Of a stretch of 64,000 nt of DNA, positions 9,001 to 15,000 are shown piece by piece. Source of the stretch: Escherichia coli (GTDB taxonomy: Bacteria > Pseudomonadota > Gammaproteobacteria > Enterobacterales > Enterobacteriaceae); the NCBI RefSeq assembly GCF_050920415.1, contig NZ_CP169309.1. One strand, written 5' to 3'. Made by a program: the position numbers. Position 1 is the first letter of the stretch. Each line of letters begins with the position of its first letter.

Positions 9001-12000
9001 TCCGTTGACCTCGCGGGGATCTTGCTGAAAACCGCCGCTTACGGTTTGCTGCGTTTCTCTCTGCCACTGTTTCCGAACGCGTCGGCAGAGTTCGCGCCAA
9101 TCGCCATGTGGTTGGGTGTTATCGGCATCTTCTACGGTGCGTGGATGGCCTTCGCCCAGACCGATATCAAACGTCTGATCGCCTACACCTCGGTTTCCCA
9201 CATGGGCTTCGTGCTGATTGCTATCTACACCGGCAGCCAGTTAGCCTACCAGGGCGCGGTCATTCAGATGATTGCTCACGGCTTGTCGGCGGCGGGTCTG
9301 TTTATTCTTTGCGGTCAGCTTTATGAACGTATCCACACCCGCGATATGCGCATGATGGGCGGTCTGTGGAGCAAAATGAAATGGCTGCCAGCACTGTCAC
9401 TGTTCTTTGCAGTGGCAACGCTTGGGATGCCAGGCACCGGTAACTTCGTCGGCGAATTTATGATTCTGTTCGGCAGCTTCCAGGTTGTCCCGGTGATTAC
9501 CGTTATCTCTACCTTTGGGCTGGTCTTTGCATCTGTTTATTCGCTGGCGATGCTTCATCGCGCTTACTTCGGTAAAGCGAAAAGCCAGATTGCCAGCCAG
9601 GAACTGCCAGGGATGTCGCTGCGTGAGCTGTTTATGATCCTGTTGCTGGTGGTGCTGCTGGTACTGCTGGGCTTCTATCCGCAGCCGATTCTGGATACCT
9701 CGCACTCCGCGATTGGCAATATCCAGCAGTGGTTTGTTAATTCCGTTACTACTACAAGGCCGTAAATCGCCATGACAATAACTCCACAAAACCTGATCGC
9801 ACTGCTACCGTTGCTGATCGTCGGCTTGACGGTGGTGGTTGTGATGCTCTCCATTGCGTGGCGACGCAATCATTTCCTCAACGCTACGCTCTCGGTTATT
9901 GGGCTTAACGCGGCGCTGGTTTCGCTCTGGTTTGTCGGCCAGGCTGGCGCTATGGACGTTACGCCGCTGATGCGCGTTGATGGTTTCGCCATGCTTTACA
10001 CTGGGCTTGTATTGTTGGCGAGCCTCGCCACCTGTACTTTCGCCTACCCGTGGCTTGAAGGCTATAACGACAACAAGGACGAGTTCTACCTGTTGGTGTT
10101 AATTGCCGCTCTGGGCGGGATCCTGCTGGCGAATGCCAATCACCTGGCGTCTCTGTTCCTCGGTATTGAACTGATCTCTCTGCCGCTGTTTGGCCTGGTC
10201 GGTTACGCTTTCCGCCAGAAACGTTCGCTGGAAGCCAGTATCAAATACACCATCCTTTCTGCTGCAGCATCTTCTTTCCTGCTGTTTGGTATGGCACTGG
10301 TGTACGCGCAGTCTGGCGACCTGTCGTTTGTTGCACTGGGTAAAAACCTTGGCGACGGCATGCTCAACGAGCCGCTGTTACTGGCAGGTTTTGGCCTGAT
10401 GATTGTCGGCCTCGGCTTCAAGCTCTCTCTGGTGCCGTTCCACCTGTGGACGCCAGACGTATACCAGGGCGCGCCTGCGCCAGTTTCTACCTTCCTGGCG
10501 ACGGCGAGCAAAATCGCTATCTTCGGCGTGGTGATGCGTCTGTTCCTCTACGCACCAGTGGGTGATAGCGAAGCGATTCGCGTGGTGCTGGCGATTATCG
10601 CCTTTGCCTCCATCATCTTCGGTAACCTGATGGCGCTGAGCCAGACCAATATCAAACGTCTGCTCGGCTACTCGTCTATCTCTCACCTCGGCTATCTGCT
10701 GGTGGCGCTGATTGCGCTGCAAACCGGCGAGATGTCGATGGAAGCGGTAGGGGTTTACCTCGCGGGTTATCTGTTCAGCAGCCTCGGCGCATTTGGCGTA
10801 GTCAGCCTGATGTCCAGCCCTTACCGTGGTCCGGATGCTGATTCCCTGTTCTCTTACCGTGGTCTGTTCTGGCATCGTCCGATCCTCGCGGCAGTGATGA
10901 CGGTGATGATGCTGTCACTGGCCGGTATTCCGATGACGCTGGGCTTTATCGGTAAGTTCTACGTGCTGGCGGTCGGTGTCCAGGCACACCTGTGGTGGCT
11001 GGTGGGGGCCGTGGTTGTCGGTTCGGCAATTGGCCTCTACTACTACCTGCGCGTAGCGGTGAGCTTATACCTGCACGCCCCGGAACAACCGGGTCGCGAT
11101 GCACCATCAAACTGGCAGTACAGCGCGGGCGGTATCGTGGTGCTGATCTCTGCACTGTTGGTACTGGTGCTGGGTGTATGGCCACAACCGCTGATTAGCA
11201 TTGTTCGGTTAGCAATGCCGCTGATGTAAGCTGTCAGTTCGTAAGTCAGAAAGCCGCCGACAAGTTCGGCGGTTTTTTTGTCATGACATCATCACCCAAC
11301 AATAACCGTCAGCGCATGATTCCCCTGTCGCAGTATACGCCGATAAGCGCTAATTAATTTTTCCATATCAAGCATGATGGATGCAAAGAGTTGCCCCTCT
11401 AACTCTTCTGAAAAGGTTACTCCCGGATAAATCTCCATTTCATTGAGTCGCTGAATGGAAAACTGTTTACGCAGCACATTTCGGTCAAGAGCTTCCAGTC
11501 GGTCGATTGTCGCAGCTAACTCCTGATTCCAGGTCAACCCCAGGAAACCATCTATGCCATCTTCGAGGCTGTGTTCACCAAGCACAGCACGACTCAGCGG
11601 ATCATTCTTCGCTGGATCGAACGCAGAGGTGCCTGTCAGGCCAAAATGTAAAAAATCCCAGCGTTTATCAATATCCAGTCGGCGTAATCCTGAAAGCGTG
11701 TCATGAATATTGTCCATTAAAGGTTTTTCAGCTGACTCAAGCAGTTGGTTAATCTTTTCTGAGTCGATTTCCGCAAAATAGCCAATCATTCCCATTTATT
11801 TTTCCTCCGTTGAATTTCATGTTTCGCATCTTAAAACAGATGAGGGAAAATAAAATGCGCATGTTGCTTTTTCTGGACCCGCCTCGAGAAAATTTTATTG
11901 TTTACTGTTGTATAACAAGGTGATAACGCCATCCACGACCTGAGCCATTTTCTGATAATTCAATCTGTCTGCGGTATCACCGGGCAAGTGGTATTGTTTA

Positions 12001-15000
12001 TTACGATAAAAAGCGGTGTCGGTAATCATTACGGCGGGAATATCGTGTTGCCAATAATTAAGGTGGTCAGAGAAATCAATGCCGGGAATAAACCCTGGGG
12101 CATTCATAGAATAAACAGATAAATTCCGGGATGACAACAATGCGGCTTTTACCTGACGAACGGCGTTGATATCCTGTATTCTGCCGACCACGGCAATAAA
12201 GTCACCCCGTTCAGGATAAAGCCAGGACATTGCCGGGTAAGGGTAATCCTGGCTCCCAGGCGCAGAGTCGTAATAGCCAATCATCTCCAGAGAAATCATT
12301 AACTGTACTGGGCGGTTAAGCGAAGCTGCATGTACCGCGCTCCCCATTTCATTGCTACGAAAGAAGGGCGGTTCTTCCGACGCATAGGCGACCAGCTGCA
12401 CGCCAGTTTTCGGTGTTTGCTGCTGTAACAAACGTGCCAGTTCGAGTAATCCTGCCACGCCGCTGGCGTTATCATCCGCGCCAGGCGTATAGGTTAATTG
12501 ATCTTTTTCAAAACTGCTGGCAGAGTCATAGTGCGCACCAATAATAATCAGCGGTCCATTGGCAGGACCATAATCAGCTACAATATTTTTGTAGGGACCT
12601 CCCGTAATGGGAACGTCCTGCCCGGTAACTCTGGCACCGCTACTGACAAAGACCTCTTTTATATACTCTGCGGACCTATTCAGATTATCAATAATGTCTG
12701 CACTACGGGGATACACAGTTTGTGTAAGATAACGAACTGTTTTTTCTAATTGCTCAGGACTTGCGTGTCGGGGAGTTGGCGGTAATGCATTGATCCAGGG
12801 TTGGTAAAAAATAATAAAAGTAAGCGATAGTAGTAATGATATAAAATAAAGAGGTGTCATTTTTTTCATATGTAAATTATCAATAAAAGGCGTTATTTTA
12901 TAATTATTTATAATGAGTTATGAGTGTTTATTTTATTACGGTTGGTAGAGATATACAAAAAGTATTTTTTTACAGTGGGTTCGCTATTTTAAAAAGGAAT
13001 TCGTATGAGAAAAAATATAATTATGTTATTTATTGGCAGATTGAATTGACAGGGGGCAGAAATCTGAGGGTAAGAAAAGTCAGCAACTACAATCCACTAC
13101 ATCAACAGACCAGCAATCGCGTGCCGCGATACGCTGGAAATACCCGTAGATTGAACTGGCGGATGGTGTGACTGACATCGGTCAGTGATGACTTTTTAGC
13201 AAACTATGTTCGATCAGTCAGCATATTTGCTGACTGGTCGAATTGACTAACAATGATGTTAACTTACTCTTTTTCCTGATGATCTATTTTTGGGTTGTGA
13301 GTGTTTTATTCTAAGTCTTTATAATAATGATTGATATTTGCATCGCCATATTTATCTAAATAACAATTTCTGTTTGTCAGTCGATGTTGAAAATCAATTT
13401 CGTACTGCTCTTCTGCTGAATATTTTTTAAATCTGTCAGCATAGTTTTTTAATAACGTATAGGGAGCGCTGTCAGAATTGCTTTCCCTTTGTTCAATTAC
13501 TTCTTTGGCTGCCATGCACACAAATGCACCGCAACTTTGGCTTAAGTATTGCTGAAGATCGGCATGTAAAAATGTTATCTCTTGTTCAGTTAAATGATCT
13601 GTTATATTCTTATTATTCGGCATTTCTCCCATGAATTTAGAATTGAAACTATTAATGACACGCTTAAGTGAATTTTCTTTATCATGGCCTAGTGCACGTA
13701 ATGAGTTGAATATGACGCATTTTATTTGTTGTGTGTTATTTTTTTCATTAACTATTTTTTGTAGCGAAACTAATATCCAGTGTCCGCCAGTATTTATGGG
13801 GAATAACTGGACTTCTTTCGGCCATGATGGATCGCTCTTAATATTATCATTGAGAGCGATTTCCAGGTAAGTGCTGTTGGAATCGGGGAGGTAGAGACCA
13901 GTAGGATAATTGACTTGAGTATTTTTTGCATTAGCGGCGATCTTCTGAAGATAGCAATCTATTTCATCCGTGGTTAATTGACGATTTTTATCCCAGAAGT
14001 TTGTACCATCGCTCAGTTCATTATTCTTATCATTTAAAAGTACCTTTGAAAGCGACTGTTTTTCAGATATAAGAGGAATATCATCACCGATAATTGTCAT
14101 TAATTTTGACGGGGAGAATAGCTTTTTGAACAGGAGATCATCTGAATTATCCGGACCAGCTGGTTTAAGGGGGGAGTTGGTTGCGGTATGTGCCAAATTA
14201 TATAATTTTAAACAGGCATTTTTGATAAGTCGGATAATCGATAGGGTTTCATTTGTTGGGTTTCTAACAATATGATAAAGAATATCTTCGGCTTTTTTTC
14301 CAAATTCATCATAACCTAACGCAATATTATGCAGTAACTCAATGCTTTCTTCATCTCCGGATAATGCTGTTTTTTTTAAAGATTGCAGTAATTCCTCGGT
14401 CACAGTAAATTTTTCTGCAAATGTCTGATTGAGTTGTGTTTGAGATAATTGACAATAATTGCTGACAACTGTAACCATCATAGGCTCCTTTTAGTTGCAA
14501 AGGTTGTGCTGAATGAAGATAAAAAGAGGCAACTTATTGCTCTGAATATAGTGCGTGCGGAGATGAATAAATATCAAAAATCGCTCAATATGCCCGTGTG
14601 GGGGGATATATGTGGCGCGGGTTGCGATAACAGGGCAAGTTTCGCCCTGTTTTTAGTAGGAAGCAGAGTTAAACATTAAACACGGTGAAATCATGCGCCA
14701 GTTCAGTCGCCGGGAAAATTGACCGACATTCACGTAACAGGTGCTGACAACCTTTGTCATCATAGCGCGAGCTGACGTGGGTAATGATTAGCTTACCGAC
14801 TCCAGCCTCACGGGCCAGTGTCGCAGCCTGGCGTGTAGAGCTGTGGCCGCGACTATTGGCTTTGGCTTCCATGGTTATATCCAACGTCGCTTCGTGTACC
14901 ATGACATCGACGCCTTTAGCCAGGTCAAGTGCGGCATCGCAGGGGCCGGTATCACCGAAAATAGCGAGCGCTTTACCTGGCACTGGAGCGGCTAAGTAAT

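What the first reader, a model, noticed from the sequence alone, without database searches (positions are those of the whole stretch)
11230..13305. Compact nuoN-yfbM-yfbL-elaD arrangement lacking yfbK and yfbNOP relative to K-12
In K-12, as I recall the map, yfbN, yfbO and yfbP lie between nuoN and yfbM, and yfbK lies between yfbL and elaD. Here nuoN is followed after 62 bp (containing a clean bidirectional terminator) by yfbM, and yfbL is separated from elaD only by 436 bp of AT-rich non-coding sequence. This locus is therefore a presence/absence hotspot, and the junctions at 11230..11291 and 12870..13305 are the places to look for insertion or deletion scars.
Basis: partly seen in the sequence, partly recalled or inferred. 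Interest (0 to 1): 0.3.

Follow-up and report, generated by a model that had tools for sequence, protein, structure and literature searches.

The report
Common E. coli yfbK-deletion haplotype
This E. coli strain lacks yfbK because of an old internal deletion whose leftovers are still readable, and it lacks yfbN/O/P because those genes are an insertion confined to K-12-like strains, so this is an ordinary and widely shared gene-content polymorphism.

Summary

The two junctions have different histories.

- **nuoN|yfbM junction.** It carries no scar. The compact junction is homologous base for base in B2 strains, E. whittamii and another cryptic Escherichia lineage. It is contiguous in 4,213 of 5,426 complete E. 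coli genomes. K-12 carries a 2,558-bp, 39.7% GC insertion (yfbP-yfbO-yfbN) just after the nuoN terminator T-run. That insertion is in about 17-19% of genomes, nearly all at 99% identity or more.
- **yfbL|elaD gap.** It is a scar. It holds the yfbL-yfbK promoter region and three colinear yfbK remnants: 5' 123 nt, a 20-nt internal piece and the last 40 nt with the stop codon. It also holds the yfbK/elaD terminator hairpin and 47 nt of elaD's original 3' end. yfbK is intact in E. albertii, E. whittamii, a clade-I-like Escherichia and B2 strains, so it was lost here. The identical joints occur in 2,582 of 5,426 genomes (48%). The full window-type haplotype occurs in 553 (10%).

elaD is itself an insertion that B2 and the outgroups lack. 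The locus is a real gain/loss hotspot, but an ordinary one. Interest is low.

The parts
9772..11229 (+). nuoN, last gene of the nuo operon. The protein is identical to K-12 NuoN (WP_000156701.1), but the DNA allele is unusually divergent.
   Evidence: dS is 0.15-0.17 against other E. coli, versus 0.04-0.09 among the others.
11230..11291 (.). Compact nuoN|yfbM intergenic region (62 bp). This is the ancestral junction, with no remnant of yfbN/O/P. In K-12 the 2,558-bp island lies between the positions matching window 11280 and 11291.
   Evidence: The junction is contiguous in 4,213 of 5,426 genomes.
11248..11280 (+). Intrinsic terminator of nuoN: GC-rich hairpin (core 11253-11273) plus a U7 tail. 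The same stem read on the - strand is followed by only CUUUCU. Its T-run is the recurrent insertion point, used by the K-12 island and by IS200 in other strains.
   Evidence: Fold. Conservation across species. Insertion points.
11292..11795 (-). yfbM (DUF1877, 167 aa), intact and under strong purifying selection.
   Evidence: Pfam E = 6e-34. dN/dS is 0.04-0.08 with dS about 0.3 between E. coli alleles.
11895..12869 (-). yfbL (peptidase M28, 324 aa), intact here. About 37% of E. coli genomes carry a 326-bp internal deletion matching window 12283-12608.
   Evidence: dN/dS is 0.2-0.4.
12870..13005 (.). Former yfbL/yfbK divergent promoter region. It is AT-rich and highly diverged: about 70% identity to yfbK-intact alleles and 93-94% to other yfbK-deleted alleles.
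13006..13128 (+). yfbK 5' remnant, matching K-12 yfbK nt 1-132. It has an in-frame stop after 14 codons. A 5-nt deletion that removes the lipobox Cys codon is shared by all yfbK-deleted alleles examined.
   Evidence: 75.6% identity over 123 nt, E = 2e-17. Alignments.
13129..13148 (+). 20-nt internal yfbK fragment, matching K-12 yfbK nt 1456-1475 at 18/20. It sits between two deletion joints: 1,323 bp is missing to its left and 213 bp to its right.
   Evidence: It is colinear with the other remnants. My own estimate of the chance expectation is about 2e-6 over 1,556 positions.
13149..13188 (+). yfbK 3' remnant: the last 40 nt including the TGA stop, of the elaD-island type.
   Evidence: 97.5% identity over 40 nt, E = 4e-13..
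13208..13243 (.). 16-pair hairpin, the convergent terminator between yfbK and elaD. It is retained and conserved in K-12.
   Evidence: Fold at -41.3 kcal/mol, z = -5.2. Inverted match.
13259..13305 (-). Original 3' end of elaD, now out of frame. A 1-nt deletion in an A-run at 13309-13311 creates a stop at 13306-13308, giving 391 aa instead of 403.
   Evidence: Alignment. PGAP note 'frameshifted'. tblastn frame switch.
13306..14481 (-). elaD ORF (ElaD/SseL N- and C-terminal domains, Ulp1 C48 domain at residues 168-366). It is part of a ~1.5-kb, ~35% GC insertion absent from B2 and from four other Escherichia lineages.

Best explanation
The region is one common haplotype of a multi-state structural polymorphism in Escherichia.

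The inferred ancestral order is nuoN-yfbM-yfbL-yfbK-rbn. The window's state reflects three things:
1. **Gain of elaD.** A ~1.5-kb, low-GC elaD segment was inserted between yfbK and rbn in a non-B2 E. coli ancestor. It overwrote the last ~27 nt of yfbK.
2. **Loss of yfbK.** On that elaD-positive background, yfbK was lost through two internal deletions (1,323 bp and 213 bp) plus small frame-destroying lesions. This left a 183-nt pseudogene remnant and the yfbK/elaD terminator hairpin.
3. **No yfbP-yfbO-yfbN insertion.** The window retains the ancestral compact nuoN|yfbM junction. K-12-like strains carry that island immediately after the nuoN terminator T-run.

The anatomy, the identical joints and the counts are shown directly by the sequences. 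The order of events, and the spread of the haplotype across phylogroups by homologous recombination of the flanks, are inferred.

The consequences here are also inferred. The strain makes no YfbK. yfbL and yfbM remain intact. ElaD lacks its last 12 residues because of a strain-level 1-nt deletion.
For: **Remnants.** The yfbK remnants are colinear with K-12 yfbK, with E = 2e-17 and 4e-13.

**Single origin of the deletion.** Four yfbK-deleted alleles have identical joints and the same 5-nt lipobox deletion.

**Counts in 5,426 complete genomes.**
- The scar is contiguous in 2,582.
- The yfbK body is present in 2,513-2,540, with alleles spread from 90% to 100% identity.
- The window-type haplotype is in 553.
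- The compact junction 1 is contiguous in 4,213.
- The K-12 island is in only 946-1,015, of which 985 are at 99% identity or more.

**Outgroups.**
- yfbK is full length in E. albertii, E. whittamii, Escherichia sp. MOD1-EC7003 and B2 strain ATCC 25922. All four lack elaD.
- The compact junction 1 is homologous base for base in B2, E. whittamii and SCPM-O-B-8794.

**Composition and boundaries.**
- The K-12 island is 39.7% GC, against 51% for the window and 57% for nuoN.
- elaD is about 35% GC.
- The elaD segment boundaries are mapped against B2.
Against: - Escherichia sp. MOD1-EC7003 carries a diverged (86%) yfbN-containing island at the same right-hand boundary. The island is therefore older than K-12's lineage, and a loss scenario at junction 1 cannot be formally excluded for some lineages.
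- E. albertii's junction 1 is unseen, because the contig ends 14 nt past yfbM.
- Only four outgroup genomes were recovered.
- No microhomology or repeat was found at the deletion joints, so the deletion mechanism itself is unknown.
- Haplotype counts come from separate searches, not from a per-genome cross-tabulation.
- RefSeq complete genomes are a biased sample of the species.
Confidence: 0.9

Rival explanations
1. The window's yfbL-elaD arrangement is ancestral, and K-12 gained yfbK by insertion.
For: About 53% of complete E. coli genomes lack the yfbK body, so absence is numerically the majority state.
Against: - The window retains the first ~123 nt, an internal 20 nt and the last 40 nt of yfbK in the correct order and orientation.
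- yfbK is full length at this position in E. albertii, E. whittamii, MOD1-EC7003 and B2.
- yfbK alleles are deeply diverged, at 90-95% identity in 1,103 genomes. This fits an old resident gene.
Confidence: 0.02
2. The yfbP-yfbO-yfbN block is ancestral at junction 1 and was cleanly deleted in the window's lineage and in most other E. coli.
For: - A diverged (86% identity) version of the island, with an extra 191-aa ORF, sits at the same boundary next to yfbM in Escherichia sp. MOD1-EC7003.
- K-12's yfbN-yfbM spacer is a remnant of that ORF, so the island has a history of decay.
Against: - There is no remnant in the window.
- The compact junction sequence is conserved base for base across E. coli phylogroups, E. 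whittamii and SCPM-O-B-8794. Independent clean deletions would not produce that.
- The island is in only 17-19% of genomes, almost all at 99% identity or more.
- Its GC content is 39.7%.
Confidence: 0.06
3. The 436-bp gap has acquired a new function, such as a small protein (for example the 83-aa ORF at 12920..13171) or a small RNA. On this reading it is more than a scar.
For: - PGAP annotates a 44-aa hypothetical protein over the yfbK remnant in two other yfbK-deleted strains.
- The scar is retained at 91-96% identity in thousands of genomes.
Against: - There is no Rfam match at E <= 1.
- The ORFs are not conserved between yfbK-deleted alleles. Indels shift the frames, and PGAP calls no gene there in this strain.
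- The 5' part diverges at roughly the neutral rate for this locus: 70-80% identity, against dS of 0.15-0.3 in the flanking genes.
- The promoter-like matches equal the shuffle expectation: 6 found, 5.9 expected.
Confidence: 0.03
4. The arrangement is an assembly artefact in which a repeat collapsed.
For: None found.
Against: - The same joints occur in 2,582 complete genomes from independent projects. The full window-type haplotype occurs in 553.
- No repeats flank the joints.
Confidence: 0.005

Closest known systems
E. coli K-12 nuoN-yfbP-yfbO-yfbN-yfbM-yfbL-yfbK-elaD-rbn region (b2268-b2276)
   Same: The flanking genes, orientation, nuoN terminator, yfbL-yfbK divergent region, yfbK/elaD hairpin and elaD segment are all the same. 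Identity is 89-97%.
   Different: The window lacks the 2,558-bp yfbPON island. It also lacks 1,536 bp of yfbK (1,323 + 213 bp deleted; 183 nt remains). It carries a 1-nt deletion near the 3' end of elaD.
yfbK-deleted haplotype of O157:H7, E. coli B and many B1/A/E strains (for example GPEC859, WP9-S17-ESBL-11)
   Same: The two deletion joints and the 5-nt lipobox deletion are identical. The compact junction 1 is the same.
   Different: The window's allele is a rare, diverged member. The best other matches are about 96.6% identical over 1.2 kb. Most carriers of the scar, about 2,000 genomes, additionally have a 326-bp deletion in yfbL.
Published elaD presence/absence polymorphism (Catic et al. 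2007, PMC1847702; Wang et al. 2025, PMC12575377)
   Same: elaD is present in non-B2 strains and absent from B2. Some lineages have premature stops, as in this window.
   Different: The 2025 paper contains no mention of yfbK, yfbL, rbn, synteny or flanks. The 2007 paper turned up only in the search listing and was not opened. Neither the boundary mapping nor the link to the yfbK scar turned up in the searches.
IS200/IS605 insertion at intrinsic-terminator T-runs
   Same: In WP9-S17-ESBL-11 an IS200-family element sits exactly after the nuoN terminator T-run. This is the same point as the K-12 island.
   Different: The window has no IS at this site. It has only a 4-5-nt shorter spacer containing the small palindrome TGTCATGACA.

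Membership tests
yfbK (vWA / YfbK_C lipoprotein gene) pseudogene remnant | Colinear nucleotide homology to the 5' end, interior and 3' end of yfbK at the syntenic position | tested here: met
   Window 13006-13128, 13129-13148 and 13149-13188 match K-12 yfbK nt 1-132, 1456-1475 and 1689-1728.
yfbK (vWA / YfbK_C lipoprotein gene) pseudogene remnant | Intact reading frame encoding the vWA and YfbK_C domains, which would make it a functional gene | tested here: not met
   1,536 bp is missing, and an in-frame stop follows 14 codons. tblastn finds only a 12-residue C-terminal match at E = 0.32. It is a remnant, not a gene.
Intrinsic (Rho-independent) terminator, bidirectional | GC-rich hairpin followed by a U-tract on the nuoN strand | tested here: met
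   A 13-pair stem plus U7. The 62-nt gap folds at -22.7 kcal/mol, z = -4.3. It is conserved in five lineages.
Intrinsic (Rho-independent) terminator, bidirectional | U-tract after the hairpin on the opposite (yfbM) strand as well | tested here: inconclusive
   The - strand has a 7-pair GC stem followed by CUUUCU. z = -2.2, and 5 of 200 shuffles fold as well. The consensus scan did not report it.
Mobile genomic island (for the K-12 yfbPON block that the window lacks) | Atypical base composition and patchy distribution | tested here: met
   39.7% GC. Present in 946-1,015 of 5,426 genomes, and 985 of those are at 99% identity or more.
Mobile genomic island (for the K-12 yfbPON block that the window lacks) | Target-site duplication, terminal repeats, or an integrase/transposase gene | tested here: not met
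   No clear direct repeat was found at the two ends. There is only an 8/10 match, GGTTTTTCTG versus GGTCTTTCTC. About 14 bp of the compact spacer is replaced. Pfam and NCBIfam find only weak TPR and UBA-like hits in YfbP and YfbN and nothing in YfbO.
IS-mediated or repeat-mediated deletion (for the yfbK loss) | IS remnant, or direct repeat or microhomology, at the deletion joints | tested here: not met
   No IS sequence and no shared bases appear at either joint in alignments against six intact alleles. The joints may have diverged since the event.
ElaD/SseL CE-clan deubiquitinase | ElaD_SseL N- and C-terminal domains and the Ulp1 C48 catalytic domain, scoring above Pfam cut-offs | tested here: met
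   PF22103 at 158.9 bits, PF22102 at 102 bits and PF02902 at 93.1 bits, covering residues 30-366.
ElaD/SseL CE-clan deubiquitinase | Full-length product (403 aa in K-12) | tested here: not met
   A 1-nt deletion gives 391 aa, and PGAP flags the gene as frameshifted. The truncation lies after the catalytic-domain match, so loss of activity is not implied. That last point is inference.

The most novel reading that the evidence does not exclude
The yfbM-yfbL-yfbK-elaD block may consist of ancient, deeply diverged haplotypes that recombination moves across phylogroups. yfbM dS is about 0.3 and the window's nuoN dS is about 0.16, against 0.04-0.09 among the other five E. coli nuoN alleles compared here.

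Within these haplotypes a functionally linked envelope module may be eroding step by step. The module would be the YfbK vWA lipoprotein and the YfbL M28 peptidase, perhaps together with ElaD. The apparent order of decay is yfbK first, then yfbL, then elaD frameshifts. Parallel independent losses occur in E. whittamii (yfbL) and in SCPM-O-B-8794, where the left breakpoint of the yfbK deletion lies only 13 nt from the E. coli one.

If this is right, the nesting of the deletions would be genetic evidence that YfbK and YfbL act together, and that the module is dispensable or counter-selected in many niches.
Probability: 0.15. Interest if true: 0.35.

Novelty: already known. Interest (0 to 1): 0.12.

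Why it matters
The practical value is small.

- It shows that K-12 is the atypical strain at the nuoN end, because it carries the insertion.
- It shows that the 'AT-rich non-coding' gap next to elaD is a decayed yfbK. This is useful for annotation: the 44-aa 'hypothetical proteins' called over the scar in other strains lie over that decayed yfbK and are probably spurious.
- It gives a set of four cheap structural markers for typing haplotypes at this locus: the yfbPON island, the yfbK scar, the yfbL 326-bp deletion and the elaD segment.
- It places the published elaD presence/absence pattern in its genomic context.

It reveals no new biological mechanism.

Tried and rejected
- **Remnants of yfbN/O/P.** I searched the window with blastn (word size 7) and tblastn and found none.
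- **Target-site duplication or terminal repeats at the K-12 island ends.** Only an unconvincing 8/10 match turned up.
- **Microhomology at the two yfbK deletion joints.** I compared them against six intact alleles and found none.
- **Rfam scan of 11000-13600 at E <= 1.** No match.
- **Consensus promoter scan.** Matches are at the shuffle expectation.
- **New ORF in the gap.** The frames are not conserved between alleles.
- **Whether the strain is a cryptic-clade Escherichia.** The locus is only 91-94% identical to most E. coli, but I rejected this. NuoN and many neighbouring proteins carry common E. coli WP accessions. The divergence is local to this locus.
- **Function of the K-12 island proteins.** Only sub-threshold TPR, UBA-like and SUKH-like hits were found, so no conclusion can be drawn.
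- **Literature search for the yfbK/yfbNOP polymorphism.** Nothing specific turned up.
- **Technical failure.** A first dN/dS script timed out and was rerun successfully.

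
Full report
**Source and anatomy**

The window is 100% identical over 10700-14000 to the chromosome of E. coli strain MFDS1022581 (NZ_CP169399.1). It runs in reverse orientation relative to the K-12 map. ORF listing, the record's PGAP annotation and Pfam agree on these genes:

- nuoN, + strand, 9772..11229
- yfbM (DUF1877), - strand, 11292..11795
- yfbL (peptidase M28), - strand, 11895..12869
- elaD (ElaD/SseL with a Ulp1 C48 domain), - strand, ORF 13306..14481
- rbn, elaA, elaB and menF downstream

The 436-bp gap is 35.1% GC.

The K-12-lineage strain MT102 has nuoN-yfbP-yfbO-yfbN-yfbM-yfbL-yfbK-elaD-rbn. 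Its yfbPON segment is 100% identical to that of BW25113.

**Junction 1 (nuoN|yfbM, 11230..11291)**

blastn and pairwise alignment against K-12 give two blocks. Window 10700-11280 matches K-12 up to the end of the nuoN terminator T-run. Window 11291 onward matches K-12 from the yfbM stop codon. K-12 has 2,558 bp (yfbP, yfbO, yfbN) where the window has 10 bp.

The window holds no fragment of yfbN/O/P, here or anywhere in its 64 kb.

The compact junction is homologous base for base in five other lineages:
- three E. coli strains of different haplotypes
- the B2 strain ATCC 25922
- E. whittamii
- a cryptic lineage labelled E. coli SCPM-O-B-8794

The shared sequence is GGCGGTTTTTTTTGGTGCCCTGAC(A/C)CCATCACCC. 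The window's copy is 4-5 nt shorter and carries a few substitutions.

Among 5,426 complete E. coli genomes:
- The junction is contiguous in 4,213.
- The K-12 segment is present in 946 at 80% coverage or more, and in 1,015 with any match. Of those, 985 are at 99% identity or more.

The segment is 39.7% GC, against 57% for nuoN and 51% for the window. I found no convincing target-site duplication and no mobility gene.

K-12 therefore carries the insertion, and the window shows the ancestral state at this junction.

One caveat applies. Escherichia sp. MOD1-EC7003 has a diverged version of the island (86% identity) at the same boundary. It carries an extra 191-aa ORF, and K-12 keeps only the tail of that ORF. 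The island is therefore older than K-12's lineage and probably moved between lineages by recombination of the flanks. That last step is inference.

The site is reused. In WP9-S17-ESBL-11 an IS200/IS605 element sits exactly after the same T-run.

The hairpin is a strong terminator for nuoN: 13 pairs plus U7, with the 62-nt gap folding at z = -4.3. It is weaker for yfbM, where the tail is CUUUCU and z = -2.2. 'Clean bidirectional' is therefore only half right.

**Junction 2 (yfbL|elaD, 12870..13305)**

This gap is a scar. Alignment to K-12, a multiple alignment with six intact and four deleted alleles, and blastn resolve it as follows:

| Window coordinates | Content | Match to K-12 |
|---|---|---|
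| 12870-13005 | former yfbL/yfbK divergent promoter region | about 70% identity to yfbK-intact alleles |
| 13006-13128 | yfbK 5' remnant | yfbK nt 1-132, 75.6% identity, E = 2e-17; stop after 14 codons |
| 13129-13148 | yfbK internal fragment | yfbK nt 1456-1475, 18/20 |
| 13149-13188 | yfbK 3' remnant with the TGA stop | yfbK nt 1689-1728, 97.5% identity, E = 4e-13 |
| 13208-13243 | 16-pair hairpin between the converging yfbK and elaD | conserved in K-12; -41.3 kcal/mol, z = -5.2 |
| 13259-13305 | original 3' end of elaD, now out of frame | see below |

Two deletions, of 1,323 bp and 213 bp, removed the body of yfbK.

Four yfbK-deleted alleles (the window, GPEC859, AR13438 and WP9) share both joints exactly. 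They also share a 5-nt deletion that removes the lipobox Cys codon. This indicates a single origin.

yfbK is full length at this position in E. albertii, E. whittamii, MOD1-EC7003 and B2. Its E. coli alleles span 90-100% identity. yfbK is therefore the ancestral resident, and the window carries a deletion.

I found no microhomology and no IS trace at the joints.

**Population frequencies (5,426 complete genomes)**

| Feature | Genomes |
|---|---|
| yfbK body present | 2,513-2,540 (46-47%) |
| Window's scar contiguous | 2,582 (47.6%), including O157:H7 and E. coli B |
| yfbL segment 12283-12608 present | 3,296 |
| Window-type haplotype (intact yfbL + scar + elaD contiguous) | 553 (10.2%) |

By subtraction, roughly 2,000 scar carriers also have the 326-bp yfbL deletion seen in AR13438.

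In the systematic 40-row sample, every yfbL-deleted genome lacked yfbK and every yfbK-positive genome had an intact yfbL. This fits nested events on one haplotype.

The window's own allele is rare. Only one genome is 99% identical or more, and the next best are about 96.6%.

**elaD**

elaD is absent from B2 and from all four non-coli Escherichia loci.

Against B2, homology breaks about 27 nt before the yfbK stop and resumes at the rbn stop. This defines a ~1.5-kb, ~35% GC segment that also supplies the yfbK C-terminus in elaD-positive strains.

The yfbK 3' remnant in the window is of this elaD-linked type, so the deletion arose on an elaD-positive background.

Absence of elaD from B2, and premature stops in some branches, are already published (PMC12575377; PMC1847702).

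In the window, a 1-nt deletion in an A-run at 13309-13311 ends ElaD at residue 391 instead of 403. PGAP flags the gene as frameshifted. The Pfam catalytic-domain match ends at residue 366, so activity may well be retained. That is inference.

**Other lineages and selection**

E. whittamii has lost most of yfbL but keeps yfbK. SCPM-O-B-8794 has an independent yfbK deletion. Its left breakpoint lies 13 nt upstream of the E. coli one and its right breakpoint differs.

Selection differs by gene:
- yfbM is strongly constrained, with dN/dS of 0.04-0.08, but its dS is very high, about 0.3 between E. coli alleles.
- yfbL is less constrained, with dN/dS of 0.2-0.4.
- The window's nuoN allele has dS of 0.15-0.17 against other E. 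coli, versus 0.04-0.09 among the others, even though the protein is identical.

Divergence is also mosaic. The window's yfbM is 99% identical to that of Ecol_881, while its neighbouring genes are not. This is the usual signature of recombination around a variable locus.

**Verdict**

The 'hotspot' interpretation is supported.

- The scar search is positive at junction 2. The scar is a shared, old, two-step deletion of yfbK.
- The scar search is negative at junction 1, where K-12 carries the insertion.

Nothing suggests a new element or mechanism. There is no Rfam hit, no conserved ORF in the gap, and promoter-like matches sit at chance level.

The arrangement is already present and annotated in hundreds of public genomes. 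Part of the variability, the elaD part, is published. This is an ordinary pan-genome polymorphism.

Noticed in passing
window 13259-13311: elaD carries a 1-nt deletion in an A-run (TTAGAAATAAAA becomes TTAGAATAAAA). The product is 391 aa instead of 403, and PGAP calls the gene a frameshifted pseudogene. The catalytic-domain match (residues 168-366) lies upstream of the lesion.
   Followed up: yes
window 9772-11795: The window's nuoN allele is about twice as diverged at synonymous sites from five other E. coli (dS 0.15-0.17) as they are from each other, yet it encodes the identical protein. yfbM is 99% identical to one strain (Ecol_881) and about 93% to the rest. This looks like a mosaic or imported haplotype.
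   Followed up: partly
L013 (NZ_AP022287.1) 6290-7000; also hit H2 (NZ_CP086627.1): An IS200/IS605-family element is inserted exactly after the nuoN terminator T-run, the same point where K-12 carries yfbPON. The terminator T-run is a recurrent insertion site.
   Followed up: partly
L010 (Escherichia sp. MOD1-EC7003) 7505-8602: This lineage has a diverged yfbN island (86% identity to K-12) at the same boundary. It has an extra 191-aa ORF (7656..8231) with only sub-threshold SUKH/SMI1-KNR4 similarity (E = 0.01-0.1). K-12's 270-bp yfbN-yfbM spacer is the remnant of this ORF's 3' part. The island may be a decayed cluster of immunity-like genes, but this is unproven.
   Followed up: partly
L003 (K-12) 8776-10268 versus L007 (ATCC 25922) 9030-9172: The elaD segment (~1.5 kb, ~35% GC) replaces ~140 bp in B2 and overwrites the last ~27 nt of yfbK. 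YfbK therefore has a different C-terminus in elaD-positive and elaD-negative strains. The right end of the yfbK deletion lies only 13 nt from this boundary.
   Followed up: partly
L011 (SCPM-O-B-8794) and L009 (E. whittamii): These are independent parallel losses. L011 has its own yfbK deletion, with a left breakpoint 13 nt from the E. coli one. E. whittamii has lost most of yfbL while keeping yfbK. L011 is labelled E. coli, but its rbn and yfbL are only 82-85% identical to E. coli, so it is probably a cryptic-clade Escherichia.
   Followed up: partly
L008 (E. albertii NBRC 107761): The contig ends 14 nt past the yfbM stop codon. This may indicate a repeat or IS at junction 1 in that genome. 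The state of junction 1 in E. albertii is therefore unknown.
   Followed up: no
L004 3860-3994 and L013 8782-8916: PGAP annotates a 44-aa 'hypothetical protein' over the yfbK remnant in other yfbK-deleted strains. It is probably a spurious call on pseudogene debris.
   Followed up: partly
window ~46235-48646, ~39381-40340, ~48866-50743 and ~56036-57007: According to the record's annotation, glpQ is split by an IS2 insertion and an rpnE/ISNCY transposase gene sits next to glpC. Several further pseudogene fragments lie between glpQ and inaA and upstream of ubiG. These coordinates were converted from L012 (+14961) and not otherwise checked.
   Followed up: no
window 12283-12608: The window differs by one base from NZ_CP169399.1 within yfbL: 99.7% over 326 nt and 99.9% over 1,218 nt. 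The window is therefore not byte-identical to that record.
   Followed up: no
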